Notes: generated by a model from the letters alone, not told the origin. 44,007 nt of DNA from a virus (IMGVR_UViG_2636415673_000006), one strand, 5' to 3'; shown: positions 2,264 through 44,007, counted from the stretch's first letter. Numbers and translations: made by a program.

Positions 2264-2920
2264 TTATAGCTCCTTTAATCGAGGCGGTTCTGGTAGAGGC
2301 ATCCAGTGGGTTACACCGCCAATTGGCTCATCGTCGTCGTACTCCAATGCGGCTATATAGAACCCGTCACGACGAGAATAAGAAATCCCTGACATTACAA
2401 TGCCATCCGAAACAACAATAATGTCACCCGTTTCTTCCGGCATTCGCTCACTACAGCTTATCCAACCATCCGGAATTACCGGAGAGTTGCCGCGTTCTTT
2501 AATGTGCAAGCGAGGCTCACCATCTTTTGGTTCAGGCCACTGGCGCTCCATGTTGATCTTCAATTTATCTTCCATAGCAGCGGTAATTTCAGCATCGCTG
2601 ATGCCAGCACGGCGCTGTGCATCCCACAACAGGAACTGCATATCAGCCCACTCGCTGAGATCGTCTGGTTCGGCTGCGGCTTCCAGAGCCTCTTTTGAGA
2701 GGTGTTTCAGTGGACCAATGGGGCCAACGCAGCCAAATGTGGAGTCAGACCATTTGGCATGCTCGTGGTGAATCTGTTCGCGTTCCAGTGAGGCGAAAGC
2801 GATTTTAAATGCTGTAAGCATGTGTGCTTGATCGTTGTCGAGTCCGAATGGCATTTCATCTCGTGCTGACTCAATACTGGTAATCGTATTTTGTAGCCAT
2901 TCTTTGGTAAAAGTGCTCAT
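2264..2920 (-). CDS. Lambdoid early protein with DUF551-like C-terminus (DUF550/DUF551 family)
   Basis: 218-aa ORF; C-terminal motif GVTHWMPLPEPP is characteristic of DUF551 proteins common in lambdoid prophages; stop overlaps the upstream gene start (coupling). Confidence 0.5.
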   Translation of the reverse strand: MSTFTKEWLQNTITSIESARDEMPFGLDNDQAHMLTAFKIAFASLEREQIHHEHAKWSDSTFGCVGPIGPLKHLSKEALEAAAEPDDLSEWADMQFLLWDAQRRAGISDAEITAAMEDKLKINMERQWPEPKDGEPRLHIKERGNSPVIPDGWISCSERMPEETGDIIVVSDGIVMSGISYSRRDGFYIAALEYDDDEPIGGVTHWMPLPEPPRLKEL

Positions 2921-3288
2921 CGTAAAATATCCTCTATACTGGTAAGTCCTTCATTATTTAGCCAGATCATGGCGTCATCCGGCAACTTGCTGTCTGGTTT
3001 GGCGTTTTTGAGAGAGGAACTCAGTCGCTTAATCCACATTGTCACCTCAGTAATGCGCCTGTCTTTGCCTTCCAGCTCAACACGCAGCTTCCCTACCGTT
3101 AGCGCAATATCCTCGTTCTCCTGGTCGCGGCGTTTGATGTATTGCTGGTTTCTTTCCCGTTCATCCAGCAGTTCCAGCACAATCGATGGTGTTACCAATT
3201 CATGGAAAAGGTCTGCGTCAAATCCCCAGTCGTCATGCATTGCCTGCTCTGCCGCTTCACGCAGTGCCTGAGAGTTAATTTCGCTCAC
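2917..3288 (-). CDS. Ead/Ea22-like early protein (coiled-coil)
   Basis: 123-aa acidic coiled-coil ORF in the ea22 position of lambdoid phages; overlapping start/stop with neighbours. Confidence 0.4.
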   Translation of the reverse strand: MSEINSQALREAAEQAMHDDWGFDADLFHELVTPSIVLELLDERERNQQYIKRRDQENEDIALTVGKLRVELEGKDRRITEVTMWIKRLSSSLKNAKPDSKLPDDAMIWLNNEGLTSIEDILR

Positions 3289-3506
3289 TTCGAACCTCTC
3301 TGTTTACTGATAAGCTCCAGATCTTCCTGGCAACTTGCACAAGTCCGACAACCCTGAACGGCCAGGCGTCTTCGTTCATCTATCGAATCGCCACACTCAC
3401 AAGAATGAGTGGCAGATATAGCCTGGTGGTTCAGACGACGCATTTTTATTGCTGTATTGCGCTGTAATTCTTCGATTTCTGATGCTGAATCAATGATGTC
3501 TGCCAT
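3285..3506 (-). CDS. TraR/DksA-family C4 zinc-finger protein
   Basis: 73-aa ORF with CECG...x17...CRTCASC four-cysteine zinc ribbon typical of phage TraR/DksA-like proteins. Confidence 0.7.
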   Translation of the reverse strand: MADIIDSASEIEELQRNTAIKMRRLNHQAISATHSCECGDSIDERRRLAVQGCRTCASCQEDLELISKQRGSK

Positions 3507-3559
3507 CTTCCATTAATCTCTGAATTGTTGGTTAATACGCTTGAGGGTGAATGCGAATA

Positions 3560-3582
3560 ATAAAAAAGGAGCCTGTAGCTCC
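3560..3582 (-). terminator. Rho-independent terminator (leftward) downstream of the DGQHR gene
   Basis: Plus strand A6-ggagc-ctgta-gctcc; on the minus strand a 5-bp GC stem followed by TTTTTTA. Confidence 0.45.
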
Positions 3583-3659
3583 ATGAAGATTTTGTTTTTC
3601 ATGCTCACCGTTCCTTAAAGACGCCGTACAGCATGCTGATATGAGACAATGTTGATTCA

Positions 3660-4724
3660 TTAAGTTGATTCCAGACTTCCTTTGGTAAAAGCTTGTATCA
3701 GTCTGTTTGCTGCTGCTTTCTGCGCTGCCACATTGGCAATAACAGATAGTTTTTCCTGGCTGGCTTTCGTGCAGATCCCCGCCCAGTTATCCATCAGAAA
3801 AAAATCCTCTCTTTCTGCAGAGCTGGTAGTTGCACATAGTTTTTCGATCATAGAAGTTATTTCTGCGATGGAATGATTAACCATCATCTGTTGAACCGCA
3901 AAACCGAAAGCGTTAATCATTACTCCATGGAACTGAATATAATCGCGCTTGTACGTAGCGTGGTGTACACCATGTCGGATTGAGTCAATCTGAGTTAGTG
4001 TAATCCATGCCTCCCAGACAGATTCTATATATCCCATTTCAAGTTGTTGATTGCCGTTCCTGGCGAACTTTGACGTTGCATCAGTGAGTGCCTTGAAACT
4101 CACCCACATATTACTTTTTAATGGCACTACGTTGTGTTCAAAATCGGTTATATCGGCAAATACAGTATGTTGGGTCAGGAAGGATATCATTCCCTGAGCA
4201 ATATCATCCCGGCCGTTATACGCCATATTGATGGTCGCTGATGGCTTAGAAACGTTGTTATTTATGTCCGAAAAGAACTGCTGCCGGGTTTTTAGCGGCA
4301 GATTCATTGTAAGCATCATGGGAACCATGAGCGTTGATGGGGAACTTCGGCAAAATATCTCAATGCCAGCTGCACGATGTTGACCATCAAAAAGTTTTAT
4401 TTCGGCGTCGAGGGGAATTCTGGCTATACCAACATTTGTGTTGCCAAACGGTACAAATTCTATATTCGAATCACAGTTACCTACGAGAGGGGGAATGATA
4501 AAAGGCTCATTTCTTGAGTCTGCGTTAGTGAGATAATTTAAAAATTTTCGTACTCGATTTGGATTAATTTCTCGCTGAGAGCGTTCCAGTGTATGGCCGT
4601 AATTATCTGAAGCGAGGAAACGAGCCAGCGATCTTCCTGGTATGGTAAGGAAGAGTGTAACAGTACCACCCTGTACACCTTGCGATGCCGGAAATTCGAA
4701 TGAATGATTACCAACCTGACTCAT
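3660..4724 (-). CDS. DGQHR-domain protein (DndB/DpdB-like, ParB-like fold)
   Basis: 354-aa ORF containing the exact DGQHR signature (KLFDGQHRAAGIE) about 120 residues from the N-terminus, as in DndB/DpdB family proteins. Confidence 0.75.
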   Translation of the reverse strand: MSQVGNHSFEFPASQGVQGGTVTLFLTIPGRSLARFLASDNYGHTLERSQREINPNRVRKFLNYLTNADSRNEPFIIPPLVGNCDSNIEFVPFGNTNVGIARIPLDAEIKLFDGQHRAAGIEIFCRSSPSTLMVPMMLTMNLPLKTRQQFFSDINNNVSKPSATINMAYNGRDDIAQGMISFLTQHTVFADITDFEHNVVPLKSNMWVSFKALTDATSKFARNGNQQLEMGYIESVWEAWITLTQIDSIRHGVHHATYKRDYIQFHGVMINAFGFAVQQMMVNHSIAEITSMIEKLCATTSSAEREDFFLMDNWAGICTKASQEKLSVIANVAAQKAAANRLIQAFTKGSLEST

Positions 4725-5556: not shown

Positions 5557-6338
5557 GCTGCCACCTTCTGCTCAGTGGCTTTCTGTTTCAGGAATCCAAG
5601 AGCTTTCACTGCTTCGGCCTGTGTCAGTTCTGACGATGCGCGAATGTCGCGGCGAAATATCTGGGAACAGAGCGGCAATAAGTCGTCATCCCATGTTTTA
5701 TCCAGGGCGATCAGCAGAGTGTTAATCTCTTGCATGGTTTCATCGTTAACCGGAGTGATGTCGCGTTCTGGCTGACGTTCTGCAGTGTATGCAGTATTTT
5801 CGACAATGCGCTCGGCTTCATCCTTGTCATAGATACCAGCAAATCCGAAGGCCAGACGGGCACACTGAATCATGGCTTTATGCCGTAACATCCGTTTGGG
5901 ATGCGACTGCCACGGCCCCGTGATTTCTCTGCCTTCGCGAGTTTTGAATGGTTCGCGGCGGCATTCATCCATCCATTCGGTAACGCAGATCGGATGATTA
6001 CGGTCCTTGCGGTAAATCCGGCATGTACAGGATTCATTGTCCTGCTCAAAGTCCATGCCATCAAACTGCTGGTTTTCATTGATGATGCGGGACCAGCCAT
6101 CAACGCCCACCACCGGAACGATGCCGTTCTGCTTATCAGGGAAGGCGTAAATTTCTTTCGTCCACGGATTAAGGCCGTACTGGTTGGCGACGATCAACAA
6201 TGCGATGAACTGCGCATCGCTGGCATCACCTTTAAATGCCGTCTGGCGAAGAGTGGTGATCAGTTCCTGTGGGTCGACAGAATCCATGCCGACACGTTCA
6301 GCCAGCTTCCCTGCCAGCGTTGCGAGTGCTGTACTCAT
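5553..6338 (-). CDS. bet: Lambda Bet (Red-beta) single-strand annealing protein
   Basis: 261-aa ORF recognised as lambda Bet ([37 protein letters not shown]...); overlaps the exo start. Confidence 0.95.
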
Positions 6339-10167: not shown

Positions 10168-10865
10168 AAAACATCGCCGCACAGATGGTTAACTTTGACC
10201 GTGAGCAGATGCGTCGGATCGCCAACAACATGCCGGAACAGTACGACGAAAAGCCGCAGGTACAACAGGTAGCGCAGATCATCAATGGTGTGTTCAGCCA
10301 GTTACTAGCAACTTTCCCGGCGAGCCTGGCTAACCGGGACCAGAACGAACTGAACGAAATCCGCCGCCAGTGGGTGCTGGCTTTCCGGGAAAACGGGATC
10401 ACCACAATGGAACAGGTTAACGCAGGAATGCGCGTAGCCCGTCGGCAGAATCGACCATTCCTGCCATCACCCGGGCAGTTTGTCGCCTGGTGCCGGGAAG
10501 AAGCATCCATTACCGCCGGGCTGCCAAACGCCAGCGAGCTGGTTGATATGGTTTACGAGTATTGCCGGAAGCGTGGCCTGTATCCGGACGCAGAGTCTTA
10601 TCCATGGAAATCGAACGCGCACTACTGGCTGGTTACCAACCTGTACCAGAACATGCGAGCCAATGCGCTGACTGACGCGGAATTACGGCGCAAGGCTGCC
10701 GATGAACTGACCTGTATGACAGCGCGAATTAACCGTGGTGAGGCTATACCTGAACCAGTAAAACAACTTCCTGTCATGGGCGGTAGACCTCTAAATCGTG
10801 CACAGGCTCTGGCGAAGATCGCAGAAATCAAAGCTAAGTTTGGGCTTAAAGGAGCAAGTGTATGA
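10164..10865 (+). CDS. P: Replication protein P (DnaB helicase loader)
   Basis: 233-aa ORF recognised as near-identical to lambda P (MKNIAAQMVNFDREQMRRIANNMPEQYDEKPQVQQ...). Confidence 0.95.
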   Translation: MKNIAAQMVNFDREQMRRIANNMPEQYDEKPQVQQVAQIINGVFSQLLATFPASLANRDQNELNEIRRQWVLAFRENGITTMEQVNAGMRVARRQNRPFLPSPGQFVAWCREEASITAGLPNASELVDMVYEYCRKRGLYPDAESYPWKSNAHYWLVTNLYQNMRANALTDAELRRKAADELTCMTARINRGEAIPEPVKQLPVMGGRPLNRAQALAKIAEIKAKFGLKGASV

Positions 10866-11164
10866 CGGGCAAAGAGGCAATTATTCATTACCTGGGGACT
10901 CATAAGAACTTCTGTGCGCAGGACGTTGCCGCGGTAACAGGCGCAACCGTAACCAGCATAAATCAGGCTGCGGCTAAAATGGCGCGGGCAGGAATCCTGG
11001 TCGTTGATGGTAAGGTCTGGCGAACGGTGTATTACCGGTTCGCTACCAGAGAAGAACGGGAAGGAAAGGTGAGCACGAATCTGATTTTTAAGGAGTGTCG
11101 CCAGAGTGCCGCGATGAAACGGGTATTGAGGGTATATAAAAGAACATCAATGGGTACACAATGA
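10862..11164 (+). CDS. ren: Ren exclusion protein
   Basis: MTGKEAIIHYLGTH...VTSINQAAAKMARAG matches lambda/DLP12 Ren; the C-terminus diverges where cargo follows. Confidence 0.85.
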   Translation: MTGKEAIIHYLGTHKNFCAQDVAAVTGATVTSINQAAAKMARAGILVVDGKVWRTVYYRFATREEREGKVSTNLIFKECRQSAAMKRVLRVYKRTSMGTQ

Positions 11165-11231
11165 TGAAACAGGTGAGTTGAGTTCAAACTGTAGTACAAT
11201 TCTCTCCAGTTTGAACAGGAAAGAATATGCT

Positions 11232-11564
11232 ATGAACCCTTATATTTATCTTGGTGGTGCAATACTTGCAGAGGTCATTGGTACAACCTTAATGAAGTTT
11301 TCAGAAGGTTTTACACGGTTATGGCCATCTGTTGGTACAATTATTTGTTATTGTGCATCATTCTGGTTATTAGCTCAGACGCTGGCTTATATTCCTACAG
11401 GGATTGCTTATGCTATCTGGTCAGGAGTCGGTATTGTCCTGATTAGCTTACTGTCATGGGGACTTTTCGGCCAACGGCTGGACCTGCCAGCCATTATAGG
11501 CATGATGTTGATTTGTGCCGGTGTGTTGGTTATTAATTTATTGTCACGAAGCACACCACATTAA
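11232..11564 (+). CDS. emrE: SMR-family multidrug efflux transporter EmrE
   Basis: 110-aa four-TM protein MNPYIYLGGAILAEVIGTTLMKFSEGFTRLW... recognised as E. coli EmrE. Start set at the internal ATG; the track ORF begins at 11178. Confidence 0.9.
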   Translation: MNPYIYLGGAILAEVIGTTLMKFSEGFTRLWPSVGTIICYCASFWLLAQTLAYIPTGIAYAIWSGVGIVLISLLSWGLFGQRLDLPAIIGMMLICAGVLVINLLSRSTPH

Positions 11565-11594
11565 AATAATTTGTTTCTAAACGACTAAAATATG

Positions 11595-11635
11595 GAGGCT
11601 CTTATATTTATATGAGCCTCGTTTTATGCTTTTTG
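11595..11635 (+). terminator. Rho-independent terminator after emrE
   Basis: gaggctc-ttatatttatat-gagcctc followed by gttttatgcttttt. Confidence 0.45.
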
Positions 11636-11818
11636 TTAATGTCTTTATTTTTTATGTATTCTTTTGTGCTTTCAAGATTATGGCGTAAGAAAATTGCAAT
11701 ACGATTATTGTTGTATATTCAAGATAATGTGACCTTAATTGTCTTTTTAAATAAAAATTAAACAAAAATTATATCCCACCACTAAGGTTTATAAAAGCAT
11801 ACGTTAGCAGGTGTCACC

Positions 11819-13345
11819 ATGAAAAAAGCCATAGCATATATGCGATTTTCATCACCAGGTCAGATATCTGGTGACTCATTAAACCGACAGAGAAGACTTA
11901 TTGCTGAATGGTTAAAGGTAAATAGTGATTATTATCTTGATACCATAACATATGAAGATTTAGGATTAAGTGCATTCAAAGGAAAGCATGCACAATCAGG
12001 AGCTTTTTCGGAATTTTTAGATGCTATAGAGCATGGTTATATATTGCCAGGAACTACATTGTTAGTTGAAAGTCTGGACAGACTTTCAAGAGAAAAAGTC
12101 GGTGAAGCGATTGAACGTCTGAAATTGATTTTGAATCACGGTATTGATGTTATAACTCTTTGCGACAATACAGTCTATAATATTGACTCTTTGAATGAGC
12201 CATATTCATTAATAAAAGCCATACTTATAGCACAAAGGGCAAATGAAGAAAGCGAGATAAAGTCAAGTCGGGTTAAATTATCATGGAAGAAAAAACGGCA
12301 GGATGCACTGGAATCAGGTACGATTATGACGGCGTCTTGTCCGAGATGGCTCTCATTGGATGACAAAAGAACGGCTTTTGTTCCAGACCCCGACAGGGTG
12401 AAAACTATTGAGCTAATTTTTAAACTCAGGATGGAAAGGCGCTCATTGAATGCAATAGCCAAGTATTTAAATGATCATGCTGTAAAGAATTTCTCAGGAA
12501 AAGAAAGTGCATGGGGACCTTCTGTAATTGAAAAATTATTAGCGAATAAAGCTCTGATAGGTATATGCGTACCTTCATATCGTGCAAGAGGGAAAGGGAT
12601 AAGTGAAATCGCTGGCTATTATCCCAGAGTCATATCAGATGATTTGTTTTACGCTGTACAGGAAATTCGGTTGGCACCTTTTGGTATTAGCAATAGTAGC
12701 AAGAATCCTATGCTAATAAATCTACTTCGAACAGTTATGAAGTGTGAGGCTTGTGGTAATACCATGATTGTTCATGCGGTATCTGGAAGTTTGCATGGCT
12801 ATTATGTTTGTCCGATGAGAAGATTACATCGATGTGACAGGCCATCAATAAAAAGAGATTTGGTTGATTATAATATCATTAATGAATTGCTTTTTAATTG
12901 TAGCAAAATTCAACCAGTTGAAAACAAGAAAGATGCTAATGAAACTTTAGAGTTAAAAATTATTGAGCTTCAGATGAAAATTAATAATTTAATTGCTGCA
13001 TTATCTGTTGCGCCTGAAGTTACCGCTATAGCAGAAAAAATCAGAGTATTAGATAAGGAATTACGAAGGGCTTCTGTATCATTAAAAACTTTGAAGAGTA
13101 AAGCGGTGAGCTCACTTGGTGATTTTCATGCTATTGACTTAACCAGTAAAAATGGGCGAGAGCTATGTCGTACACTTGCCTATAAAACATTCGAAAAAAT
13201 CATAATCAATACAGATAATAAAACCTGTGATATCTATTTTATGAATGGCATTGTTTTTAAACACTATCCTTTAATGAAAACAATATCCGCCCAGCAGGCG
13301 ATAAGTACTCTCAAATATATGGTTGATGGTGAGGTTTATTTTTGA
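11819..13345 (+). CDS. ybcK: Large serine recombinase (resolvase/invertase N-domain + recombinase domain + zinc ribbon), YbcK-like
   Basis: 508-aa ORF; N-terminal serine-recombinase motif (AIAYMRFSSPGQ...SLDRLSRE) and C-terminal Cys cluster (CEACGNTM...YYVCPMRRLHRC); AT-rich gene. Confidence 0.8.
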   Translation: MKKAIAYMRFSSPGQISGDSLNRQRRLIAEWLKVNSDYYLDTITYEDLGLSAFKGKHAQSGAFSEFLDAIEHGYILPGTTLLVESLDRLSREKVGEAIERLKLILNHGIDVITLCDNTVYNIDSLNEPYSLIKAILIAQRANEESEIKSSRVKLSWKKKRQDALESGTIMTASCPRWLSLDDKRTAFVPDPDRVKTIELIFKLRMERRSLNAIAKYLNDHAVKNFSGKESAWGPSVIEKLLANKALIGICVPSYRARGKGISEIAGYYPRVISDDLFYAVQEIRLAPFGISNSSKNPMLINLLRTVMKCEACGNTMIVHAVSGSLHGYYVCPMRRLHRCDRPSIKRDLVDYNIINELLFNCSKIQPVENKKDANETLELKIIELQMKINNLIAALSVAPEVTAIAEKIRVLDKELRRASVSLKTLKSKAVSSLGDFHAIDLTSKNGRELCRTLAYKTFEKIIINTDNKTCDIYFMNGIVFKHYPLMKTISAQQAISTLKYMVDGEVYF

Positions 13346-13456
13346 GTAATAATCACTTTTTCAACCGTGCTATAGTAAGAAAGTTAGGTAAGTACAATAA
13401 AATTATCTATCCTGAACGAAGCGTCCTGAGCTATGATTTTACTATAGGGACTGCCA

Positions 13457-13780
13457 ATGGATGCTGGCGTTCTCGTTCTAGCAGTTCAACAATCCCCAAT
13501 CACAAAACAATTCACTGATAACGAACTTTGCACACTCGCCTGGTTATGGCGAGCAGGGAATGTGATGTTAATTGCCTACCAGAACGTTACTCATCTTCTT
13601 CAGGATGCGGAGCATGGTGAAGCTGGTCACTTCACTTCCATCGAGCAAGAATATCCCCAGATACTCAACAGAGCGCGAGCAATCCTCGTCCGAGAAACGG
13701 CACATGTAAAACTTCAGCCGTGGCAGGATGATAAGTGGAGTCGAGTATTGCCGCATTTACCTCAGAATCTGTTTCAATAA
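13457..13780 (+). CDS. Hypothetical protein
   Basis: 107-aa ORF in the nin-region cargo; followed by a 10-bp perfect inverted repeat (cttccgtcat/atgacggaag) at 13799-13826. Confidence 0.4.
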   Translation: MDAGVLVLAVQQSPITKQFTDNELCTLAWLWRAGNVMLIAYQNVTHLLQDAEHGEAGHFTSIEQEYPQILNRARAILVRETAHVKLQPWQDDKWSRVLPHLPQNLFQ

Positions 13781-13954
13781 AGGCGCTAGTTAGTAAGGCT
13801 TCCGTCATTCTGCGATGACGGAAGTGCGGGCTGCGTACGGGAGAGCAATTGCATGAATAATATAAATATTCCGCTCACTCCATATAGCGATTTCTGATAC
13901 AAACTTATCTATTGTGGTAAAATTATAGAAACAAACTTATAGCGTACTAACCAT

Positions 13955-14737
13955 ATGGACAATATTAATAAACACGGGCTCTCAAGAAGAATACCTGAGA
14001 CAATAAAACGTCAGATAAGGCAAAGGTGCGGCTTTGGCTGTGTAATTTGTGGATTTGGATTTTATGATTATGAGCATTTTAAACCTGACTTCGTTGATGC
14101 CAAAGTACATGATCCGAATGGAATGACACTTCTTTGCTCCCAATGCAATCAAAAAAGAGCTCGTGGTAGACTTTCAGCACAGACAGTGGAAATAGCTGAC
14201 AGAAATCCCAAGTGCTTACAGGCTGGTTTTGCAAATGAAATGTTTGATTTTCATAATGAGCCTATAACAGTAAAATTTGCAGGAGTGACGTTTCATAACT
14301 GTCAAAATTTGATTGTAGTCAATGAACAACCCATTCTTTCTGTGAAACCTTCACCCATACCACATGGACCGATGCTTTTATCAGGAATTTTCTGTAATTC
14401 TATTGGTAAGGAGACTTTACTGATAGATGAAAATGAATGGAAAGCTAAATCAGACAATTGGGATGTGGAGTGTACCGGCCCGCGTATAACAATACGACGT
14501 GGGCCAGGAGAGTTTGCCCTCGTTCTAAAAATGGAACCTCCAACAGGATTGATTGTTGAGCGTCTTGATATGTTGTATGAAGGGGTCAGGATGAAAGGAG
14601 ATAAAGATCTGCTGGAAGTTTCGATTAATGGAGGTCCCTTGCACAGATGGCAATCATGCTCAATGTCAAATTGCCATACAGGGCTTGCGATTCAGGGCGG
14701 TATTAGAGCTGCTAATGATCCTTTGTATTGCGCCTAA
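13955..14737 (+). CDS. HNH-nuclease-domain protein with uncharacterised C-terminal domain
   Basis: 260-aa ORF; N-terminal HNH-like zinc-finger block (CGFGCVICG...YDYEH...NGMTLLCSQCNQKRARG); about 180 aa of unrecognised sequence follows. Confidence 0.55.
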   Translation: MDNINKHGLSRRIPETIKRQIRQRCGFGCVICGFGFYDYEHFKPDFVDAKVHDPNGMTLLCSQCNQKRARGRLSAQTVEIADRNPKCLQAGFANEMFDFHNEPITVKFAGVTFHNCQNLIVVNEQPILSVKPSPIPHGPMLLSGIFCNSIGKETLLIDENEWKAKSDNWDVECTGPRITIRRGPGEFALVLKMEPPTGLIVERLDMLYEGVRMKGDKDLLEVSINGGPLHRWQSCSMSNCHTGLAIQGGIRAANDPLYCA

Positions 14738-14929
14738 ATCCACTAAATTGATTTTCAACAATCAACTTGCCATAATTAAGTCACCGGAGTTTGAACTCCT
14801 CCGGTGACTTCTGCGCTAAACGGGGACGTTTATGCGCACATACAATCCAACCTCTCTTCTCCATTCTCAGATGCAGAAATGCACCTGCGATATTTTGCAT
14901 CCAGCGTTTGATCTCTGCGGAGGTGAAGC

Positions 14930-15385
14930 GTGAACCTCCCACAAGATGGTATCAAATTGCATCGCGGTAACTTCACCGCTATCGGTCGGCAGATCCAGCC
15001 TTATCTGGAGGACGGCAAATGCTTTCGCATGGTGCTTAAACCGTGGCGCGAGAGACGCAGTCTTTCCCAGAATGCACTCAGCCACATGTGGTACAGCGAA
15101 ATCAGTGAATACCTCATCAGCAAGGGTAAAACGTTCGCCACTCCAGCTTGGGTAAAAGATGCTCTCAAACACACATATCTCGGTTATGAAACCAAAGACC
15201 TGGTTGATGTCGTAACCGGTGATATCACCACTATCCAGTCGTTACGCCATACCTCCGATCTTGATACCGGAGAGATGTATGTCTTCCTGTGTAAGGTTGA
15301 AGCCTGGGCGGTGAATATTGGCTGCCACCTGACTATTCCGCAGAGCTGCGAGTTCCAGCTGCTCCGCGACAAGCAGGAGGCGTAA
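14930..15385 (+). CDS. ninB: NinB/Orf-family recombination protein (YbcN-like)
   Basis: 151-aa ORF with the NinB-type motif [17 protein letters not shown]; stop overlaps the ninE start (TAATG). Confidence 0.65.
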
Positions 15386-16334: not shown

Positions 16335-16419
16335 AGTCAGAGATAACAATCAACTAATACTGTTTTGTTGATTTTTGCTTGTAATTGGCGTTCTGGTCTG
16401 AGTTTTGTGGAGTAAGTTG

Positions 16420-16797
16420 ATGCGTGATATTCAGATGGTTCTTGAGCGTTGGGGAGCGTGGGCGGCTAATAATCATGAAGATGTGACCTGGTCGTCCATT
16501 GCCGCCGGTTTTAAGGGATTAATTCCTTCAAAAGTAAAATCTCGCCCGCAATGTTGTGACGATGACGCGATGATCATTTGCGGGTGCATGGCCCGTCTGA
16601 AAAAGAACAACAGCGATTTGCATGATTTATTGGTGGACTATTATGTCGGCGGCATGACTTTTATGGCGCTTGCACGTAAGCATGGGCGATCTGATTGTTG
16701 GGTTGGCAGGATGCTCCAGAAAGCTGAGGGCGTAGTGGAGGGTATGCTGATGGTGTTGGATCTCCGATTGGAGATGGATGCTGATTGTTCGAAATAA
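16420..16797 (+). CDS. quuD: Late-gene antiterminator Q (phage-82/DLP12 QuuD type)
   Basis: [24 protein letters not shown]... with a Cys cluster ([12 protein letters not shown]); position immediately upstream of tR' and the lysis genes. The track ORF starts at 16405. Confidence 0.8.
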
Positions 16798-16952: not shown

Positions 16953-17477
16953 TTATTGTTTAACCCATAATAATTCATTGACATTGAATCCCAACTTTTG
17001 AGCGGTTCGCACATAGTCTGCTTTTACTTTATCTGGAATAGTTGGGGTCCTTGCCAGAATCCATAGGTATTCTCTGTTCGGACCACTGACAAGAGCATAC
17101 TTATACTCATCATCCAGTTTGATTACATTATAGCCACCATAGAAGGGGCCAAAAAACGAAACCTTCAACGCTGCAGTTTTAGTATCTCCAGTAAAGTATG
17201 CTTTACCTTCGCTCTCGCTCCATTTATTTTTCGTTGGATCGTATCCACGGTTAAGTACACGAATCCCTCCGTCGTTCCGTTTTCCATAGGTAGCGCTGAC
17301 CTGTTCCAGACCACGTTCGAACCGGTTCTCGAGGCGAGCTATTTCATACCATTTTCCGAGGTAGCGGTTGGCGTCAAAATTTGTAATCGGCTGCACACCT
17401 TTAGGTGGTGTCGGGGCCTTACATGCTATAAGAGTGAAAGAGAGTGCAATGCCAGTCAACACAGGCCATAACTTCAT
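16953..17477 (-). CDS. blc: Bacterial lipocalin Blc-like outer-membrane lipoprotein
   Basis: 174-aa ORF with lipobox (LIAC) and lipocalin signature (NFDANRYLGKWYEIARLENRFERG ... YLWILARTP), strongly resembling E. coli Blc. Confidence 0.85.
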   Translation of the reverse strand: MKLWPVLTGIALSFTLIACKAPTPPKGVQPITNFDANRYLGKWYEIARLENRFERGLEQVSATYGKRNDGGIRVLNRGYDPTKNKWSESEGKAYFTGDTKTAALKVSFFGPFYGGYNVIKLDDEYKYALVSGPNREYLWILARTPTIPDKVKADYVRTAQKLGFNVNELLWVKQ

Positions 17478-17669
17478 AATAAATCCTGTACTTTTGATAG
17501 TTGAGAGTAAGTATGAAAGATAGATGATTACGACCGATCACTTAAAGAACTTTCATACTATATTAGGAATAGTCTATAACAGAAAAATTGTCAGTGATGA
17601 CGCCAGAAAGGCAATTTATTCCGTGCACTACACAGTTTATGTGTTAATGAATTAGTCAAGGGGGAGAAT

Positions 17670-18629
17670 ATGATAAAAAAACCTGTGATTGGAATCAGCG
17701 GTTGTTTGGCCGGCTCTGCTGTTCGTTTTGATGGTGGTCACAAAAGAGCTGACTTTTTAATGGACAAATTAGTGGAATGGGTAACATTCAGACCAGTATG
17801 TCCGGAAATGGCTATAGGGCTGCCAGTTCCGCGTCCTGCTCTACGTCTTGTGCGCTCGACGCAAGGAAATATACGGATGTGTTTCAGCCACGACCAGAAT
17901 GAGGATGTGACAGAGAGAATGACAGAGTTTAGTCGTTCTTATATGGACAAATTAAAGGATGTATCGGGGTTTGTGGTTTGTGCTAAATCTCCCAGCTGTG
18001 GCATGGAGCGCGTGCGTGTCTATGATGAAAATGGTAATCGAGGTCGTAAAGATGGAGTGGGACTATTTACGAGCACTTTGATGGAAAAGTTTTCCTGGCT
18101 ACCGGTTGAAGAGGATGGGCGATTACATGATCCAGTGCTTCGTGAGAATTTTGTTGAAAGAGTTTTTGCTTTGCATGAGCTCAATCACCTTTACAAGGAG
18201 AAATTATCAAGAAGAGAGTTATTAGCTTTTCATAGTCGTTATAAGCTTCAGTTGTTGGCGCATAGTCAGGCAGGCTATAAAGATATGGGACCATTTGTGG
18301 CTGCAATACACGAGTGGGCGGACCTTGAATCATACTTTGAGGTGTATCGTGATAAGCTGATGGCGATTCTCAGAAAACCTGCATCACGTAAAAATCACAC
18401 GAATGTGCTGATGCATATACAGGGGTATTTTAGTAACTACTTAAGTACACGCCAGCGTAAAGAGTTGAGCGAGGTTATACTTAACTATCGTTCTGGCACA
18501 TTACCTCTTCTTGCGCCGTTGACTCTGCTGAAGCATTATCTGGGTGAGTATCCTAATGATTACTTGCTTACACAGAATTACTTCGCTCCCTATCCGGACG
18601 AACTGGCTCTAAGACTGATGGTAAATTAA
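17670..18629 (+). CDS. YbgA-like protein (DUF523/DUF1722 family)
   Basis: 319-aa ORF; N-terminus PVIGISGCLAGSAVRFDGGHK and domain organisation resemble E. coli YbgA; RBS GGGGGAG before the ATG. Confidence 0.6.
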   Translation: MIKKPVIGISGCLAGSAVRFDGGHKRADFLMDKLVEWVTFRPVCPEMAIGLPVPRPALRLVRSTQGNIRMCFSHDQNEDVTERMTEFSRSYMDKLKDVSGFVVCAKSPSCGMERVRVYDENGNRGRKDGVGLFTSTLMEKFSWLPVEEDGRLHDPVLRENFVERVFALHELNHLYKEKLSRRELLAFHSRYKLQLLAHSQAGYKDMGPFVAAIHEWADLESYFEVYRDKLMAILRKPASRKNHTNVLMHIQGYFSNYLSTRQRKELSEVILNYRSGTLPLLAPLTLLKHYLGEYPNDYLLTQNYFAPYPDELALRLMVN

Positions 18630-18971
18630 TTGTATGCGATATCATCCAAAAGGATGAGTTCCTGCATGCAAGATATTTACAATCGTAAAAACTACACTAT
18701 GATACCCAGAGTGTCAGTTTGTATAAAAACTCTGTTTACGCTGAAGAAACCATTGAGATGCAACTTAAAGTTGGTAAACATGCCAGTCAAAATATATAAT
18801 ATTATGATTCCACGCAGCTATATATAATATAACAGATTGGTTTAATAATTTGTCTTTGTGAGTTAAATACATAATTTTATACTTGTGATGCAATGAGATT
18901 TTCCTTATTGTTGAACTGGCGAATATTGATTTTCCACCTATACTTACCTGGTGTAACCCCAATGATATCAG

Positions 18972-19712
18972 GTGGATAATATGCCATACATATGTTCTAT
19001 CATTTTGGTGTTGAACTCGTTTGATGTCCGAATTGGTAAAGAAGATATTTTGTTTAAAAAAGGAAGTGCTGTTCTCATTGATTACAATTTAAAAGATTTT
19101 TTTTCATCAAATATAGATCATGTAATGATCGTAGATGTTGAAGAGAAAACAGTTAATGATTTCTTTAAAAGCAACACACTCTCACCTTTTTCTGTAAGAA
19201 GGTTTTATCCGGCATACTTGATGGTGGAATGTGAAGATTTTTCATTGTTAAAGAACTTGATTGCATGCTTGAATTGTGATGGCAGAACTGTGGATTTTGT
19301 TAGAAATCAAATATCACTTGCATGTCTTGCTATCTTATCTTCAGAGAAAATAGTGCAAAGTTTTTTATTTGGATGTCTTAATAGTTTAGGAAGTAAAGTT
19401 AAGGCTATTATTCACACGGATATATCTGCAGCATGGAGACTTTGTGATATATCTTCAAGACTGTATCTGAGTGAAAGTCTGTTAAAAAGAAAATTAAAGC
19501 ACGAAGGCTTATCATTTAGTAAGTTAATTCTTGAAGAGCGAATGGTGATGGCGGAAAGGTTATTAAGCTACAATTTATATTCTGTTGGAAAAGTTGCTGA
19601 GATATGCGGTTATGAAAACACGTCATATTTTGTAAGTGTTTTCAGAAGATATTTTGGTGTTCCTCCCCATCAATATTCATCAAGACTTTTTTTAGAAAAA
19701 GACATGATGTAA
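18972..19712 (+). CDS. AraC/XylS-family transcriptional regulator (AppY/EnvY/YbcM-like)
   Basis: 246-aa ORF with C-terminal AraC HTH (VGKVAEICGYENTSYFVSVFRRYFGVPPHQY); very AT-rich gene. Confidence 0.8.
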   Translation: MDNMPYICSIILVLNSFDVRIGKEDILFKKGSAVLIDYNLKDFFSSNIDHVMIVDVEEKTVNDFFKSNTLSPFSVRRFYPAYLMVECEDFSLLKNLIACLNCDGRTVDFVRNQISLACLAILSSEKIVQSFLFGCLNSLGSKVKAIIHTDISAAWRLCDISSRLYLSESLLKRKLKHEGLSFSKLILEERMVMAERLLSYNLYSVGKVAEICGYENTSYFVSVFRRYFGVPPHQYSSRLFLEKDMM

Positions 19713-41584: not shown

Positions 41585-42709
41585 TTAAGATATTCTTTTA
41601 GCTATAGAATGACCTATATTTATAAACGGTTTTTCTATTACGTTATATATCAAGTAAGATAGGCTTATAGAAATTATGAGCGATGATATATAAATGGCAA
41701 ACGATCTATGTTCAGTGCTAACACCAATGCTGGAACCGTAAAACTCAATAAACTGTATAACAGGAACATGAATCAGATAAAGTGAATATGATATTCCACC
41801 AAGAGCAACAAGTGATTTATTGAATGAAATAACTTTATTATTTTCTAGAATAATAACACATAAAACAATCAGAAATGCAATATATGCAGATCGCGTCAAA
41901 CCATGTCCTTCAGACACCCCATTAAGCCAAAAAACAAACATCATTCCTAGAATGAAAACGCATAAACTATTTATAATAGCATTATTCATTCTTTTATGCC
42001 TAAGTAAAGGCATTGTCTCTGATATAATCATCCCTAAAATGAAATCATATACTATAGGGTTGCCTATGAATCCTATATGAGAAAACACTCCTGTTTTTGC
42101 AATATTGAATGATTGGGCGTCAATTACTACCGAGTGGTTAAAGTAAAGAGAAATAATTGTACTTACAGCAACTAGAAAACATGATGTGATTAATACCCTG
42201 TATTTTATACTTAATGACATGGATATTGCGAAAATAAAATAAAAATATATCTCGTACCCAAGTGACCATGAAACAATTAGCGTTCCCCACCCATAATATG
42301 GCGGTAGAGTTGAGCCATCTAAAGGGATGAGAAGAAATGATTTTATAATATTATTTATAGAAAAAACACCACCCCATGATACGCCTGTGTAAATATTGTG
42401 GTAAAAAAGAAAAACATAAACGCTTAATACTATTGCGTAAACAGGATAAATTCTAAAAAATCTCTTTACAAGAAATGAAGCGGTATTTCTTAAAGATGTT
42501 TTTGCTAAGTTTTTAGTTGAGTATGATATTATAAATCCGCTTATTATAAAAAACAATTCAACTCCAAATATAGCATTCGCGGTTATCTTGTCCATGAAAG
42601 AACCAGGATCTACTTGCCCGAAAAGACCTCTATTATGACCAATAGCTACAGCAAGAGCTGCAATTCCACGAAGCGCTTCTATTCCGTATAATTTATCTGT
42701 TTTCATCAA
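41585..42709 (-). CDS. Acyltransferase family 3 integral membrane protein (putative O-antigen/LPS O-acetyltransferase, lysogenic-conversion gene)
   Basis: 374-aa polytopic membrane ORF with the family N-terminus (LYGIEALRGIAALAVAIGHN); extremely AT-rich; located between tail fibre genes and integrase. Confidence 0.75.
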   Translation of the reverse strand: MMKTDKLYGIEALRGIAALAVAIGHNRGLFGQVDPGSFMDKITANAIFGVELFFIISGFIISYSTKNLAKTSLRNTASFLVKRFFRIYPVYAIVLSVYVFLFYHNIYTGVSWGGVFSINNIIKSFLLIPLDGSTLPPYYGWGTLIVSWSLGYEIYFYFIFAISMSLSIKYRVLITSCFLVAVSTIISLYFNHSVVIDAQSFNIAKTGVFSHIGFIGNPIVYDFILGMIISETMPLLRHKRMNNAIINSLCVFILGMMFVFWLNGVSEGHGLTRSAYIAFLIVLCVIILENNKVISFNKSLVALGGISYSLYLIHVPVIQFIEFYGSSIGVSTEHRSFAIYISSLIISISLSYLIYNVIEKPFINIGHSIAKRIS

Positions 42710-42849
42710 GTAATATAGTTAGTAGTTGATAAAATTGTTGCTGGAGTCTACCACCAAGAGCTTGGATGATCGACCAGTTAGCATCTCAAGCTGTATGCGT
42801 GAGACAAAAACGAGACACACAAAGCTTTGCAAGTCTTTGCGCTGTTTAC

Positions 42850-44007
42850 CTATGATACCTTCTCCTCAATCCAATCCGCCCACCACTGCATCATTTCTCT
42901 GCGCTTATCGAGATACTGAGCATGGTTGTAAATCCCGCGCACAGATCCGCCGTTGGCATGTGCCAGTTGCACTTCAATAGCATCAGCAGGCCATTCGTGC
43001 TCGTTCATAATCGTGCTGAATTCATGCCTGAATCCGTGACCGCTTTCCAGACCTTCATAGCCGATTTGTTTGATCACAAGCAGTACAGCGTTCTCGCAAA
43101 TTGGCTTCTTCTTATCGTTGCGCCCGGCAAAAACAAACTCTGATACTGGTTTGGTGATTGAACTTAGCGTAGTGAGAAGTTCAACTACCTGGTCTGACAT
43201 AGGAACCACATGAATTTTGCGTCCCTTCATCACACTGGCGTCGATGGTGATAATCCTGTTTTCAAAATCGACGTTCTTCCATAGCATGGAACGAAGCTCT
43301 TTTGTTCTGAGGGCAGTGTAGCGTAAAACTTTGGTCGCAATGAGCGATACGATACTTCCTGAAAATGTTGCCAGTGCTTTGTTGAATGCCGGGATCTGGT
43401 CTGCAGGAAGAAACGGGAAGTTCTTCTTGCGGTATCCTTTCATGGCGTCAGCAAGGTCAGGTGCCGGGTTATATTTAGCCCTGCCTGTGACAATAGCGTA
43501 ACGGAAAACCTCGCCGCATCTTCTGCGGGCTTTATTGGCTCGTTCCATTGCGCCGCGATCTTCAAATCTGCGGATTACTTCCAACAGTTGCATCGGCTCA
43601 ATATCCTGAATTTCAAGGCCGCCGATGATGGGTAAAATGTCGTCATCAAACATTTTTGCAAGTTCATTTGCATAGCCTACTGACCAGACTTGCTTCTTGT
43701 GCTCGTACCATTCCTTGTAAATGGCGCTAAAGGAGTTGTTGTTAGACGAAGCCTTTTTCGCTTTTACCGGATCGATGCCAACCGAGATGTCTTTCCTCGC
43801 AGTCCATGCTTTATCCCTTGCCTCCTGCAAAGTCATAAGCGGATATTTTCCTACGGTCAGTATTTTTTCCTTACCGTCAATCTTGTAGCGAAGCTGCCAT
43901 ACCTTTTTCCCGGATACAGGGACATAAAGGTACAGGCCATTACCATCGAGAAGGCGGTATGGTTTTTCTTTCGGCTTTGCTGCTTCAATCTGCTTAACGG
44001 TGAGCAT
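42850..44007 (-). CDS. int: Tyrosine integrase (P4/DLP12 IntD type)
   Basis: 385-aa ORF whose ATG is the last codon of the window (MLTVKQIEAAKPKEKPYRLLDGNGLYLYV...); C-terminal catalytic region HGFRHEFSTIMNE...AHANGGSVRGIYNHAQY contains the conserved R/H/R/Y residues. Confidence 0.9.
   Translation of the reverse strand: MLTVKQIEAAKPKEKPYRLLDGNGLYLYVPVSGKKVWQLRYKIDGKEKILTVGKYPLMTLQEARDKAWTARKDISVGIDPVKAKKASSNNNSFSAIYKEWYEHKKQVWSVGYANELAKMFDDDILPIIGGLEIQDIEPMQLLEVIRRFEDRGAMERANKARRRCGEVFRYAIVTGRAKYNPAPDLADAMKGYRKKNFPFLPADQIPAFNKALATFSGSIVSLIATKVLRYTALRTKELRSMLWKNVDFENRIITIDASVMKGRKIHVVPMSDQVVELLTTLSSITKPVSEFVFAGRNDKKKPICENAVLLVIKQIGYEGLESGHGFRHEFSTIMNEHEWPADAIEVQLAHANGGSVRGIYNHAQYLDKRREMMQWWADWIEEKVS

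What the first reader, a model, noticed from the sequence alone, without database searches (positions are those of the whole stretch)
11170..14760. Cargo island in the nin region: emrE, large serine recombinase, hypothetical and HNH-domain protein
Between ren and ninB, where lambda has only nin genes, there are about 3.6 kb of mostly AT-rich cargo: a multidrug efflux pump (emrE, with its own terminator), a 508-aa large serine recombinase, a 107-aa hypothetical followed by a 10-bp perfect inverted repeat, and a 260-aa HNH-domain protein. The ren C-terminus diverges exactly at the junction. emrE and ybcK also occur in DLP12; the HNH-domain gene may be additional cargo.
Basis: partly seen in the sequence, partly recalled or inferred. 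Interest (0 to 1): 0.55.

Follow-up and report, generated by a model that had tools for sequence, protein, structure and literature searches.

The report
Mosaic cargo slot in lambdoid prophage
Between the ren and ybcN genes of this lambda-like E. coli prophage lies a 3.6-kb accessory-gene slot holding the well-known DLP12 genes emrE, ylcJ and ybcK, a broken antirepressor gene and one unstudied nuclease gene, so it is mostly ordinary phage mosaicism with one gene worth testing.

Summary
Window 11129-14747 is AT-rich cargo between ren and the ybcN-type nin genes. The "107-aa hypothetical" is the 3' half of an rha antirepressor gene.

The island is a mosaic of three modules:
- emrE-ylcJ-ybcK (11129-13384), 98% identical to E. 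coli K-12 DLP12 and also carried by sequenced lambdoid phage genomes.
- An rha remnant (13470-13831).
- A 916-bp module (13832-14747) with a 260-aa protein, found in 82 of 5426 complete E. coli genomes.

Sibling phages hold other cargo between the same two junctions, including the validated defence gene PD-lambda-1. Cargo therefore turns over by recombination at conserved flanks, not through the YbcK serine recombinase.

The 260-aa protein has a structurally supported N-terminal HNH nuclease fold and an all-beta C-terminal domain with no known relative. The family is large, under purifying selection and has no partner gene. In 46 of 46 prophage loci the gene is lower in GC than its flanks, and it usually sits between long intergenic gaps, which is how morons look.

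I favour a prophage-encoded exclusion or restriction nuclease, untested. Overall this is a new member of a known kind, of modest interest.

The parts
10862..11164 (+). ren-like gene (100 aa). The left junction of the cargo slot lies inside it at 11128/11129. The last 11 codons (RVYKRTSMGTQ) belong to the emrE module.
   Evidence: PHROG Ren 9.6e-42. Homology to SfI, PhiR26_1 and PhiR30_1 ends at 11128-11137. The Ren tails of four cargo classes diverge after ...AAMKRVL.
11182..11216 (+). Imperfect 13-bp hairpin just upstream of the emrE ribosome-binding site. Role unknown.
   Evidence: the repeat finder I13. RNA fold -13.4 kcal/mol, z -2.5. Conserved in all emrE carriers.
11232..11564 (+). emrE, a small multidrug resistance efflux transporter (110 aa).
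   Evidence: PF00893 3e-35. 98.2% identical to K-12 EmrE, with Glu14 present. Annotated emrE in identical genomes.
11595..11634 (+). Probable intrinsic terminator of emrE: a hairpin at 11595-11620 followed by a U-rich tract. It overlaps the ylcJ start codon.
   Evidence: RNA fold -15.5 kcal/mol, z -3.46, 1 of 200 shuffles as stable. Sequence read.
   Evidence: PF23688 YlcJ 2.4e-35. 48 of 48 aligned residues identical to K-12 YlcJ. 8 nonsynonymous against 1 synonymous change versus phage 4A7.
11819..13345 (+). ybcK, an intact large serine recombinase (508 aa).
   Evidence: Resolvase, Recombinase and Zn_ribbon_recom domains. 97.8% identical to K-12 YbcK. The YMRFSS and DRLSR catalytic motifs are readable in the translation. 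dN/dS 0.07-0.16.
13457..13780 (+). rha remnant: a 107-aa ORF equal to the C-terminal half of an Rha/P22AR-type antirepressor. The N-terminal domain is missing.
   Evidence: PF10548 1.1e-13. Aligns to residues 100-202 of the 202-aa Rha of PhiR26_1 at 79.6% identity. The DNA homology spans 13470-13831. dN/dS 0.40.
13798..13825 (+). Strong hairpin with no U-tract at the 3' end of the rha module (10-bp perfect inverted repeat, extended to 12 pairs).
   Evidence: Sequence read. RNA fold -20.7 kcal/mol, 0 of 200 shuffles as stable. It lies inside the segment shared with PhiR26_1 rha.
13832..14747 (+). HNH module: a 123-bp AT-rich upstream region with one promoter-like match, followed by the 260-aa gene.
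   Evidence: No match to any of the phage loci compared. Present in 82 of 5426 complete E. coli genomes at 99.6% identity or more. Promoter-like site at 13894-13923.
13955..14737 (+). 260-aa protein: an N-terminal HNH (beta-beta-alpha-metal) nuclease domain of about 90 aa, then an all-beta C-terminal domain (about residues 94-250) of unknown fold family.
14748..14933 (+). Conserved right boundary or leader element: promoter-like TTGATT-17-CATAAT (14748-14776), a 12-bp perfect hairpin (14778-14810) and the 33-aa ylcH/orf33 ORF (14832-14933).
   Evidence: All compared phages realign from 14748. Phage 82 annotates the -35, -10 and a 'possible regulator-binding site' here. Hairpin -20.0 kcal/mol, z -5.7. 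The element is duplicated in PhiR26_1 and IdasGreatGrand.
14930..15385 (+). ybcN (phage 82 orf151 type NinB/Orf homologue), the first gene of the conserved nin block to the right of the slot.
   Evidence: NF007281 4.7e-83. PHROG NinB/Orf 9.2e-52. 96.7% identical to K-12 YbcN.

Best explanation
Window 11129-14747 is the accessory-gene (moron) slot of the DLP12 / phage 82 type nin region. It is not part of the phage backbone and not a single inserted element.

Shown:
- The slot is bounded on the left by a fixed junction inside ren. On the right it is bounded by a conserved leader element made of a promoter-like site, a hairpin and ylcH, just ahead of ybcN.
- It holds three modules of separate ancestry. 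The first is emrE-ylcJ-ybcK, the DLP12 module, which also travels on sequenced lambdoid phage genomes. The second is the 3' half of an rha antirepressor gene. The third is a 916-bp module encoding a solitary HNH nuclease with an unclassified all-beta C-terminal domain.

Inferred:
- Cargo is gained and lost by homologous or illegitimate recombination at the conserved flanks and at duplicated copies of the leader element, not by YbcK.
- emrE is a self-contained transcription unit that gives the lysogen cation and quaternary-ammonium efflux.
- YbcK is a functional recombinase whose substrate is unknown.
- The HNH gene is an independently transcribed moron. Its product most likely cuts incoming foreign DNA, possibly modified DNA, with the C-terminal beta domain choosing the target. 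The logic resembles the prophage-encoded McrA type IV restriction enzyme, with the domain order reversed.
For: Slot and junctions:
- Unrelated cargo sits between identical junctions. PhiR26_1 has PD-lambda-1 plus rha plus a 169-aa ORF, with PD-lambda-1 confirmed at 1.9e-198. PhiR30_1 has an acyltransferase and a lipoprotein. DLP12 and PhiR34_1 have ybcL-ybcM after ybcK. 4A7 has an esterase after ybcK. SfI has nothing.
- The ybcN-type right flank was found in 17 phage records. All 12 whose slot was measured or annotated here (10 distinct phages) carry cargo: 1.5-4.1 kb in the nine with both junctions mapped.

Mosaic structure:
- The shared part ends at 13384 (DLP12 type), 13630 (4A7) or 13760 (Turner).
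- 13470-13831 matches the rha 3' half at 85-87%.
- GC steps match these module borders.

Leader duplication: the leader occurs twice and brackets the rha cassette in two phages.

Moron hallmarks of the HNH gene in 46 diverse prophage loci:
- GC is lower than the flanks in 46 of 46, by a median of 8.8 points.
- The upstream gap has a median of 126 nt, against 3 nt for other co-oriented gene pairs (p = 6e-12).
- The downstream gap has a median of 85 nt (p = 1e-7).
- 22 of 46 loci have at least one antiparallel neighbour.
- By contrast, nin genes are normally packed with ATGA overlaps (PMC8022706).

No conserved partner gene was found.

Nuclease assignment:
- The Cys4 pattern, His41 and Asn65 are conserved: C29, C32, C61, H41 and N65 invariant, C64 at least 90%.
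- A distant family member passes Pfam HNH (25 bits).

Selection: dN/dS is 0.06-0.09 for the HNH gene and 0.07-0.16 for ybcK.

The phage has its own tyrosine integrase at 42850-44007.
Against: - No expression, phenotype or biochemical data exist for the HNH protein or for YbcK.
- The HNH protein matches no PADLOC defence family. The best hit is PtuB at E = 0.031.
- In 24 of 46 loci, and in the window, the gene is co-oriented with the early-right operon. It could therefore be transcribed in lytic growth rather than in the lysogen.
- Defence-type neighbours are few: one reverse transcriptase and one AbiC among 150 neighbours, and GmrSD_N twice and SLFN/AlbA_2 twice among 135.
- The only promoter evidence is a 9-of-12 consensus match, and the number of such matches in the region is no higher than in shuffles.
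- Recombination at the flanks is inferred from comparisons, not observed.
Confidence: 0.7

Rival explanations
1. The island, or at least emrE-ylcJ-ybcK, is a discrete mobile element that the large serine recombinase YbcK inserted into ren and can move between phages.
For: - YbcK has all three large-serine-recombinase domains.
- Its catalytic motifs are intact and it is under purifying selection (dN/dS 0.07-0.16).
- The module is conserved as a block in DLP12 and in at least ten sequenced lambdoid phages.
- Homologues at 52-56% identity sit at prophage ends next to host genes in Yersinia and Erwinia, which is an integrase-like position.
Against: - The left junction (11128/11129) is the same one used by cargo that has no recombinase, namely PD-lambda-1 and the acyltransferase set.
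- The right end of the shared block is ragged: 13384, 13630 or 13760.
- No inverted repeat links the two ends of the block. The only pairs found are short matches at chance level.
- Serine integration does not delete target DNA, yet both the ren tail and the 5' half of rha are missing.
- YbcK homologues occur without emrE.
- The block was found on no true plasmid.
Confidence: 0.08
2. The 260-aa HNH gene is a free-standing homing endonuclease: a selfish gene that cuts HNH-less sibling phages near its own locus and is copied in during repair.
For: - Free-standing HNH genes in phages are commonly homing endonucleases, and BFVD structural neighbours include annotated HNH homing endonucleases (all E > 0.09).
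- The gene is solitary, intergenic and patchily distributed across many phyla.
- It has a catalytic domain plus a separate domain that could bind DNA.
Against: - In sibling phages the same slot holds other genes rather than an uninterrupted target site, so this is replacement and not insertion.
- The family sits next to many different genes and also in non-phage chromosomal contexts.
- Purifying selection is strong (dN/dS 0.06-0.09), and identity between Enterobacteriaceae and Burkholderia is 50-60% over the full length.
- The C-terminal domain matches no known homing-endonuclease DNA-binding module.
Confidence: 0.15
3. The HNH protein is a lytic-cycle DNA-processing nuclease of the nin region, comparable to NinG/Rap, YbcO or RusA. 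It would serve phage recombination or replication, or degrade host DNA, and would be transcribed from pR.
For: - In the window and in 24 of 46 loci it is co-oriented with the early-right operon, between the replication genes and the Q genes.
- The nin region already holds several nucleases.
- A BFVD neighbour is annotated NinG.
- Frequent neighbours are Ead/Ea22, HolE-theta, DinI and DNA methyltransferases, which are early accessory genes.
Against: - Its gaps and GC are unlike those of operonic nin genes.
- 7 of 46 loci are antiparallel to both neighbours and 22 of 46 to at least one.
- Many homologues are in non-phage contexts in distant phyla.
- It is dispensable: only 82 of 5426 E. coli genomes carry it, and sibling phages lack it.
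Confidence: 0.2

Closest known systems
DLP12 cryptic prophage of E. coli K-12, renD-emrE-ylcJ-ybcK-ybcL-ybcM-ylcH-ybcN segment
   Same: Same gene order and junctions for ren-emrE-ylcJ-ybcK and for ylcH-ybcN-ninE-ybcO-rusA-ylcG-Q. Protein identities are 98.2% (EmrE), 97.8% (YbcK) and 96.7% (YbcN).
   Different: ybcL-ybcM are replaced by the rha remnant plus the HNH module. ren is intact here, whereas an IS3 interrupts it in K-12. The window prophage looks complete, with its own integrase and with head, tail and lysis genes.
Morons and accessory-gene hotspots of temperate phages (lambdoid morons; the P2/P4 defence hotspots of Rousset et al. 2022, PMC9122126; the prophage hotspots of Vassallo et al. 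2022, PMC9519451)
   Same: A fixed position between conserved genes holds unrelated, AT-rich, separately spaced genes in different phages. One occupant of the same slot, PD-lambda-1, is an experimentally selected defence gene.
   Different: I found no paper in the searched library that describes the ren-ybcN slot as a hotspot. Most of its occupants seen here are not defence genes: efflux pump, esterase, acyltransferase, ybcL/ybcM.
EcoKMcrA, the HNH type IV (modification-dependent) restriction enzyme encoded by the lambdoid e14 prophage
   Different: Domain order is reversed, with HNH at the N-terminus here. The second domain is all-beta and unrelated to McrA's DNA-binding domain. There is no sequence-level relationship. 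That e14 is the source of mcrA comes from my own knowledge.
Cap5 (CBASS) and PtuB (Septu) HNH effectors
   Different: There is no SAVED domain, no cyclase and no PtuA partner nearby. The gene is solitary in all contexts examined.
Large serine recombinases (phage integrases of the phiC31, Bxb1 and TP901-1 type; XisF)
   Same: YbcK has the Resolvase, Recombinase and zinc-ribbon architecture. It gives a weak match to the XisF equivalog model (47.5 bits, far below the cut-off of 375).
   Different: It lies in the middle of a phage that has its own tyrosine integrase. No att sites were identified and no substrate is known.

Membership tests
Small multidrug resistance (SMR) transporter, EmrE | Protein of about 110 aa that matches the SMR profile above threshold, with the membrane-embedded Glu14 | tested here: met
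   PF00893 121 bits against a cut-off of 23.7. Glu14 is in ...GGAILAEVIG. 108 of 110 residues identical to K-12 EmrE.
Small multidrug resistance (SMR) transporter, EmrE | Confers efflux of or resistance to quaternary cations | not testable with these tools
   Inferred from near-identity to the characterised K-12 protein. MIC assays are needed.
Large serine recombinase | N-terminal resolvase catalytic domain, recombinase domain and zinc ribbon, with the Ser nucleophile and the Arg/Asp catalytic residues | tested here: met
   PF00239 8.3e-19, PF07508 2.3e-14, PF13408 8.2e-08. YMRFSSPGQ and ESLDRLSRE motifs are present. dN/dS 0.07-0.16.
Large serine recombinase acting as the integrase or transposase of this island | Element ends carry att half-sites (imperfect inverted repeats around a central dinucleotide), and an empty site exists that equals the joined flanks | tested here: not met
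   No inverted repeat joins 11129-11170 with 13340-13400 or with 14700-14750 beyond chance-level 11-15-mers. The same left junction is used by cargo that has no recombinase. The right end is ragged.
HNH (beta-beta-alpha-metal) nuclease | Sequence match to the HNH profile above the curated threshold | tested here: inconclusive
   The window protein scores 14.5 bits, below the cut-off of 21.4. PHROG HNH families hit at 4.8e-4 and 4.5e-3. Family member P0187, found through the C-terminal domain, scores 25.0 bits and passes.
HNH (beta-beta-alpha-metal) nuclease | Beta-beta-alpha fold with a catalytic His, a metal-binding Asn or His, and (in this subclass) two CxxC zinc pairs | tested here: met
HNH (beta-beta-alpha-metal) nuclease | Metal-dependent nuclease activity | not testable with these tools
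   Needs purified protein and an H41A control.
Known anti-phage defence systems (PADLOC-DB 2.0) | Significant match to a defence-system protein model, with the system's partner genes present | tested here: not met
   The only hit is PtuB at E = 0.031 over 57 residues, and there is no PtuA. No conserved neighbour was found.
Moron (independently acquired accessory unit in a phage genome) | Lies between genes that are adjacent or differently filled in related phages, has a composition unlike its flanks, and has its own intergenic control regions | tested here: met
   Slot comparisons. Lower GC in 46 of 46 loci, and gaps of 126 and 85 nt against 3 nt. Promoter and terminator function was not tested.
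Rha / P22 antirepressor family (for the 107-aa ORF) | N-terminal Rha/ANT DNA-binding domain plus the P22AR C-terminal domain | tested here: not met
   Only PF10548 (the C-terminal domain) is present. The ORF aligns to residues 100-202 of a 202-aa Rha and the upstream frame is closed by stop codons. It is a remnant, not a full member.

The most novel reading that the evidence does not exclude
The 260-aa protein would represent a large, unrecognised family of single-gene anti-phage nucleases. The family has at least 1452 clusters at 50% identity, across many bacterial phyla and one archaeal MAG. In this reading the N-terminal HNH domain is the effector and the unclassified all-beta C-terminal domain is a new kind of target or infection sensor. 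The family would spread as a moron in prophage accessory slots such as ren-ybcN.
Probability: 0.35. Interest if true: 0.6.

Novelty: new member of a known kind. Interest (0 to 1): 0.35.

Why it matters
- emrE is the textbook small multidrug transporter. It is usually described as a gene of the defective DLP12 prophage. Here the same emrE-ylcJ-ybcK block sits in an apparently complete prophage and in sequenced lambdoid phage genomes, so a quaternary-cation efflux gene can travel by lysogenic conversion.
- The ren-ybcN interval behaves as an exchange slot with fixed junctions and a repeated leader element. That makes it a convenient place to look for further phage cargo, including defence genes, since PD-lambda-1 sits there in a sibling phage.
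- The one unstudied occupant is an HNH nuclease with an unclassified beta domain. It belongs to a large, widely transferred family with no assigned function, and it is a cheap and well-defined candidate for a phage-challenge experiment.

Tried and rejected
- YbcK as the agent of insertion. I looked for att-like inverted repeats at the module ends and found only chance-level matches. One is an 11-nt perfect inverted match at 11180-11190 / 14788-14798. About two such matches are expected in 4.3 kb, and the right copy lies in a hairpin loop that differs in all other phages.
- Plasmid carriage of emrE-ybcK. There were three hits. Two span the block on records of 1.3 and 4.9 Mb that are really chromosomes; the third covers only emrE (18% of the query) on a 393-kb record.
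- Sequence search of solved structures with the family profile. The only hit was a spurious one to HIV gp160 (E 0.033).
- A conserved partner gene for the HNH protein. Clustering of neighbours in 46 prophage loci and Pfam/PADLOC scans of 150 and 135 neighbours found none. DNA methyltransferases are near it in about a quarter of prophage loci but not in the window, so a classical restriction-modification pairing was rejected for this locus.
- Literature. No paper mentions the protein accessions or phrog_6544. For ybcK the only functional report read, of the 16 papers found, is a sabinene-tolerance phenotype on overexpression (PMC7181518). No paper on the PhiR phages was found.
- First BLAST script. 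The script returned nothing because the locus files are bundled in one FASTA. I repeated it correctly.

Full report
**What is there**

- A ren-like gene at 10862-11164.
- emrE at 11232-11564.
- A 508-aa large serine recombinase at 11819-13345.
- A 107-aa ORF at 13457-13780.
- A 260-aa ORF at 13955-14737.
- The ybcN-type NinB homologue at 14930-15385.
- Then ninE, ybcO, rusA, ylcG and Q.

Identical DNA in E. coli strain 2021CK-01784 carries the RefSeq annotation emrE, ylcJ, ybcK, "P22AR C-terminal domain-containing protein" and "hypothetical protein".

GC falls from 0.50-0.58 in O/P/ren to 0.30-0.41 in most of the interval. An island of 0.47-0.50 lies at 13400-13850, and GC returns to about 0.50 from 14750 onwards.

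**Boundaries**

I aligned the window against lambdoid phages that carry no cargo (SfI) or other cargo (PhiR26_1, PhiR30_1).
- Homology stops at 11128-11137, inside ren.
- It resumes exactly at 14748.
- The Ren proteins of four cargo classes are identical up to ...AAMKRVL and then each has its own short tail.

The right boundary is a conserved element. It has a promoter-like TTGATT-17-CATAAT, a 12-bp perfect hairpin (14778-14810; -20 kcal/mol, z -5.7) and the 33-aa ylcH/orf33 ORF.

**The island is a mosaic, not one insertion**

- 10801-13384 matches the DLP12-type phage PhiR34_1 at 97.8%.
- The match to 4A7 runs on to 13630, and the match to Turner to 13760.
- 13470-13831 matches the 3' half of the rha gene of PhiR26_1 and IdasGreatGrand at 85-87%.
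- 13832-14747 matches none of the phage loci compared.

The K-12 record shows renD-emrE-ylcJ-ybcK-ybcL-ybcM-ylcH-ybcN. EmrE is 98.2% identical to the window protein, YbcK 97.8% and YbcN 96.7%.

The 107-aa ORF aligns to residues 100-202 of the 202-aa Rha of PhiR26_1 at 79.6% identity. It has only the P22AR C-terminal domain, and the upstream frame is closed by stops. It is a 5'-truncated rha gene under relaxed constraint (dN/dS 0.40).

**The slot is an exchange site**

Between the same two junctions other phages carry different cargo:
- PhiR26_1: PD-lambda-1 (PADLOC 1.9e-198), rha and a 169-aa ORF.
- PhiR30_1: an acyltransferase and a lipoprotein.
- 4A7, Perceval and the 1W and 3W phages: emrE-ylcJ-ybcK plus an esterase.
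- DLP12 and PhiR34_1: emrE-ylcJ-ybcK plus ybcL-ybcM.
- Turner: emrE-ylcJ-ybcK plus the rha remnant plus small ORFs.
- SfI goes straight from ren to ninA-ninB.

The ybcN-type right flank occurs in 17 phage records. All 12 whose slot was measured or annotated here (10 distinct phages) have cargo, 1.5-4.1 kb where both junctions were mapped.

In PhiR26_1 and IdasGreatGrand the right-boundary leader element is present twice, bracketing the rha cassette. That gives an obvious substrate for gain and loss of cassettes by homologous recombination. This step is inferred, not observed.

**YbcK**

What is shown:
- It has the three domains of a large serine recombinase.
- The YMRFSS and DRLSR motifs are present.
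- dN/dS is 0.07-0.16 among four phage copies. It is therefore probably functional.

It is not the phage's integrase, because a tyrosine integrase lies at 42850-44007.

I found no evidence that YbcK placed the island:
- No att-like inverted repeats lie at the module ends.
- Cargo without a recombinase uses the same left junction.
- The right end of the shared block is ragged.
- Target sequence is missing: the ren tail and the rha 5' half.

Homologues at 52-56% identity in Yersinia and Erwinia lie at prophage ends, after the tail-fibre genes and next to host genes. One at 42% in Pantoea lies in a nin-like position. None has emrE beside it. The only functional report on ybcK in the papers I read is a solvent-tolerance phenotype on overexpression (PMC7181518). 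Its substrate remains unknown.

**The 260-aa protein: fold and family**

Sequence profiles alone are weak. Pfam HNH scores 14.5 bits, below threshold. PHROG HNH families hit at 4.8e-4. The full-length match is to phrog_6544, of unknown function. PADLOC gives only PtuB at E = 0.031.

A 45-sequence alignment shows an invariant R-x-R-C-G-x-G-C-x-x-C ... E-H ... C-x-x-C-N pattern (the fourth Cys, C64, is at least 90% conserved). An AlphaFold model built on that alignment has mean pLDDT 83.6.

A profile of the C-terminal domain alone finds 1452 clusters at 50% identity. Nearly all have about 90 residues in front of the domain. Some have extra C-terminal TPR, SEC-C or CxxCxxCC segments. One member passes Pfam HNH. 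The HNH assignment is thus supported, and the beta domain defines a large unnamed family.

**The 260-aa protein: context**

- In E. coli it occurs in 82 of 5426 complete genomes, at 99.6% identity or more. Almost all occurrences are in this same emrE-ybcK-rha' context.
- Relatives at 50-79% identity occur in Enterobacter, Klebsiella, Burkholderia, Comamonas, Pseudomonas and Vibrio.
- There are 104 hits in IMG/VR viral contigs.
- There are 214 hits among species-representative genomes from many phyla.

In 46 diverse prophage loci:
- The gene is lower in GC than its flanks in every case, by a median of 8.8 points.
- The upstream gap has a median of 126 nt and the downstream gap 85 nt, against 3 nt for other co-oriented pairs (p = 6e-12 and 1e-7).
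- At least one neighbour is antiparallel in 22 loci, and both are antiparallel in 7.

No neighbour is conserved. dN/dS is 0.06-0.09. Together these are the hallmarks of a moron. They contrast with the tight ATGA-overlap packing of true nin genes (PMC8022706).

**The 260-aa protein: function**

Nothing here tests function. I favour a prophage-encoded nuclease that excludes or restricts incoming DNA, for four reasons:
- It has the moron features just listed.
- It is solitary and is transferred widely.
- Prophage-borne HNH restriction enzymes such as McrA are a precedent.
- A validated defence gene occupies the same slot in a sibling phage.

I put this at roughly 0.35-0.4. The rivals are a lytic-cycle nin-type nuclease (about 0.2) and a homing endonuclease (about 0.15). 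Against homing, sibling phages show replacement at the slot rather than an empty target, and constraint on the protein is strong. Against a lytic role stand the gene's spacing, composition and orientation, and its presence in non-phage contexts.

**Verdict**

Most of it is already known: DLP12 cargo and lambdoid mosaicism. The added value is:
- the exact junctions;
- the three-module structure;
- the rha remnant;
- the repeated leader element;
- the lack of support for recombinase-mediated insertion;
- the characterisation of the HNH-beta gene as a moron from a large unstudied family.

Noticed in passing
window 16953-19712: A second cargo cluster lies between Q (16405-16797) and the lysis genes. 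It holds a lipocalin (Blc-like) gene on the minus strand (16953-17477), a YbgA / 2-thiouracil-desulfurase family gene (17670-18629) and an AraC-type regulator (18972-19712). nmpC occupies this position in DLP12.
   Followed up: partly
window 2264-4724: The early-left region carries a DndB-like (PF14072, DNA-sulfur-modification-associated) protein at 3660-4724 (-). It also carries a dATP/dGTP pyrophosphohydrolase plus DUF551 protein at 2264-2920 (-). Both look like further accessory genes.
   Followed up: no
window 41585-44007: An Acyl_transf_3 gene (41585-42709, -) lies next to the tyrosine integrase (42850-44007, -). This arrangement is typical of O-antigen-modifying serotype-converting phages.
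   Followed up: no
window 14748-14933; L011 about 3660-3840 and 5595-5780; L015 about 2130-2300 and 4135-4320: The right-boundary leader (promoter-like site, hairpin, start of the 33-aa ylcH ORF) is present twice in PhiR26_1 and IdasGreatGrand, bracketing the rha cassette. Its hairpin arms vary between phages, partly through changes that would keep G-U pairs in RNA.
   Followed up: partly
window 11180-11190 and 14788-14798: An 11-nt perfect inverted match sits at the two ends of the island, each copy inside a local hairpin. About two such matches are expected by chance in 4.3 kb, and the right copy is in a loop that differs in every other phage compared. I treated it as chance.
   Followed up: yes
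window 11612-11761: The ylcJ start codon lies inside the emrE terminator hairpin. Between the window and phage 4A7 the gene has 8 nonsynonymous changes against 1 synonymous change, so it is not under obvious protein-level constraint.
   Followed up: partly
L008, L046, L047, L069, L070, L080, L081, L085, L088, L092 (prophage loci with HNH-beta homologues): Large C5 or N6 DNA methyltransferases lie within about 3 kb of the HNH-beta gene in roughly a quarter of prophage loci, at varying distance and in varying orientation. None is near it in the window.
   Followed up: partly
L096-L100 (YbcK homologues): In Yersinia and Erwinia prophages, YbcK-like recombinases (52-56% identity) follow the tail-fibre and tail-fibre-assembly genes at the prophage edge. 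In Erwinia the host gene lepA comes next. In Pantoea a 42% homologue sits between the replication genes and the Q gene.
   Followed up: partly
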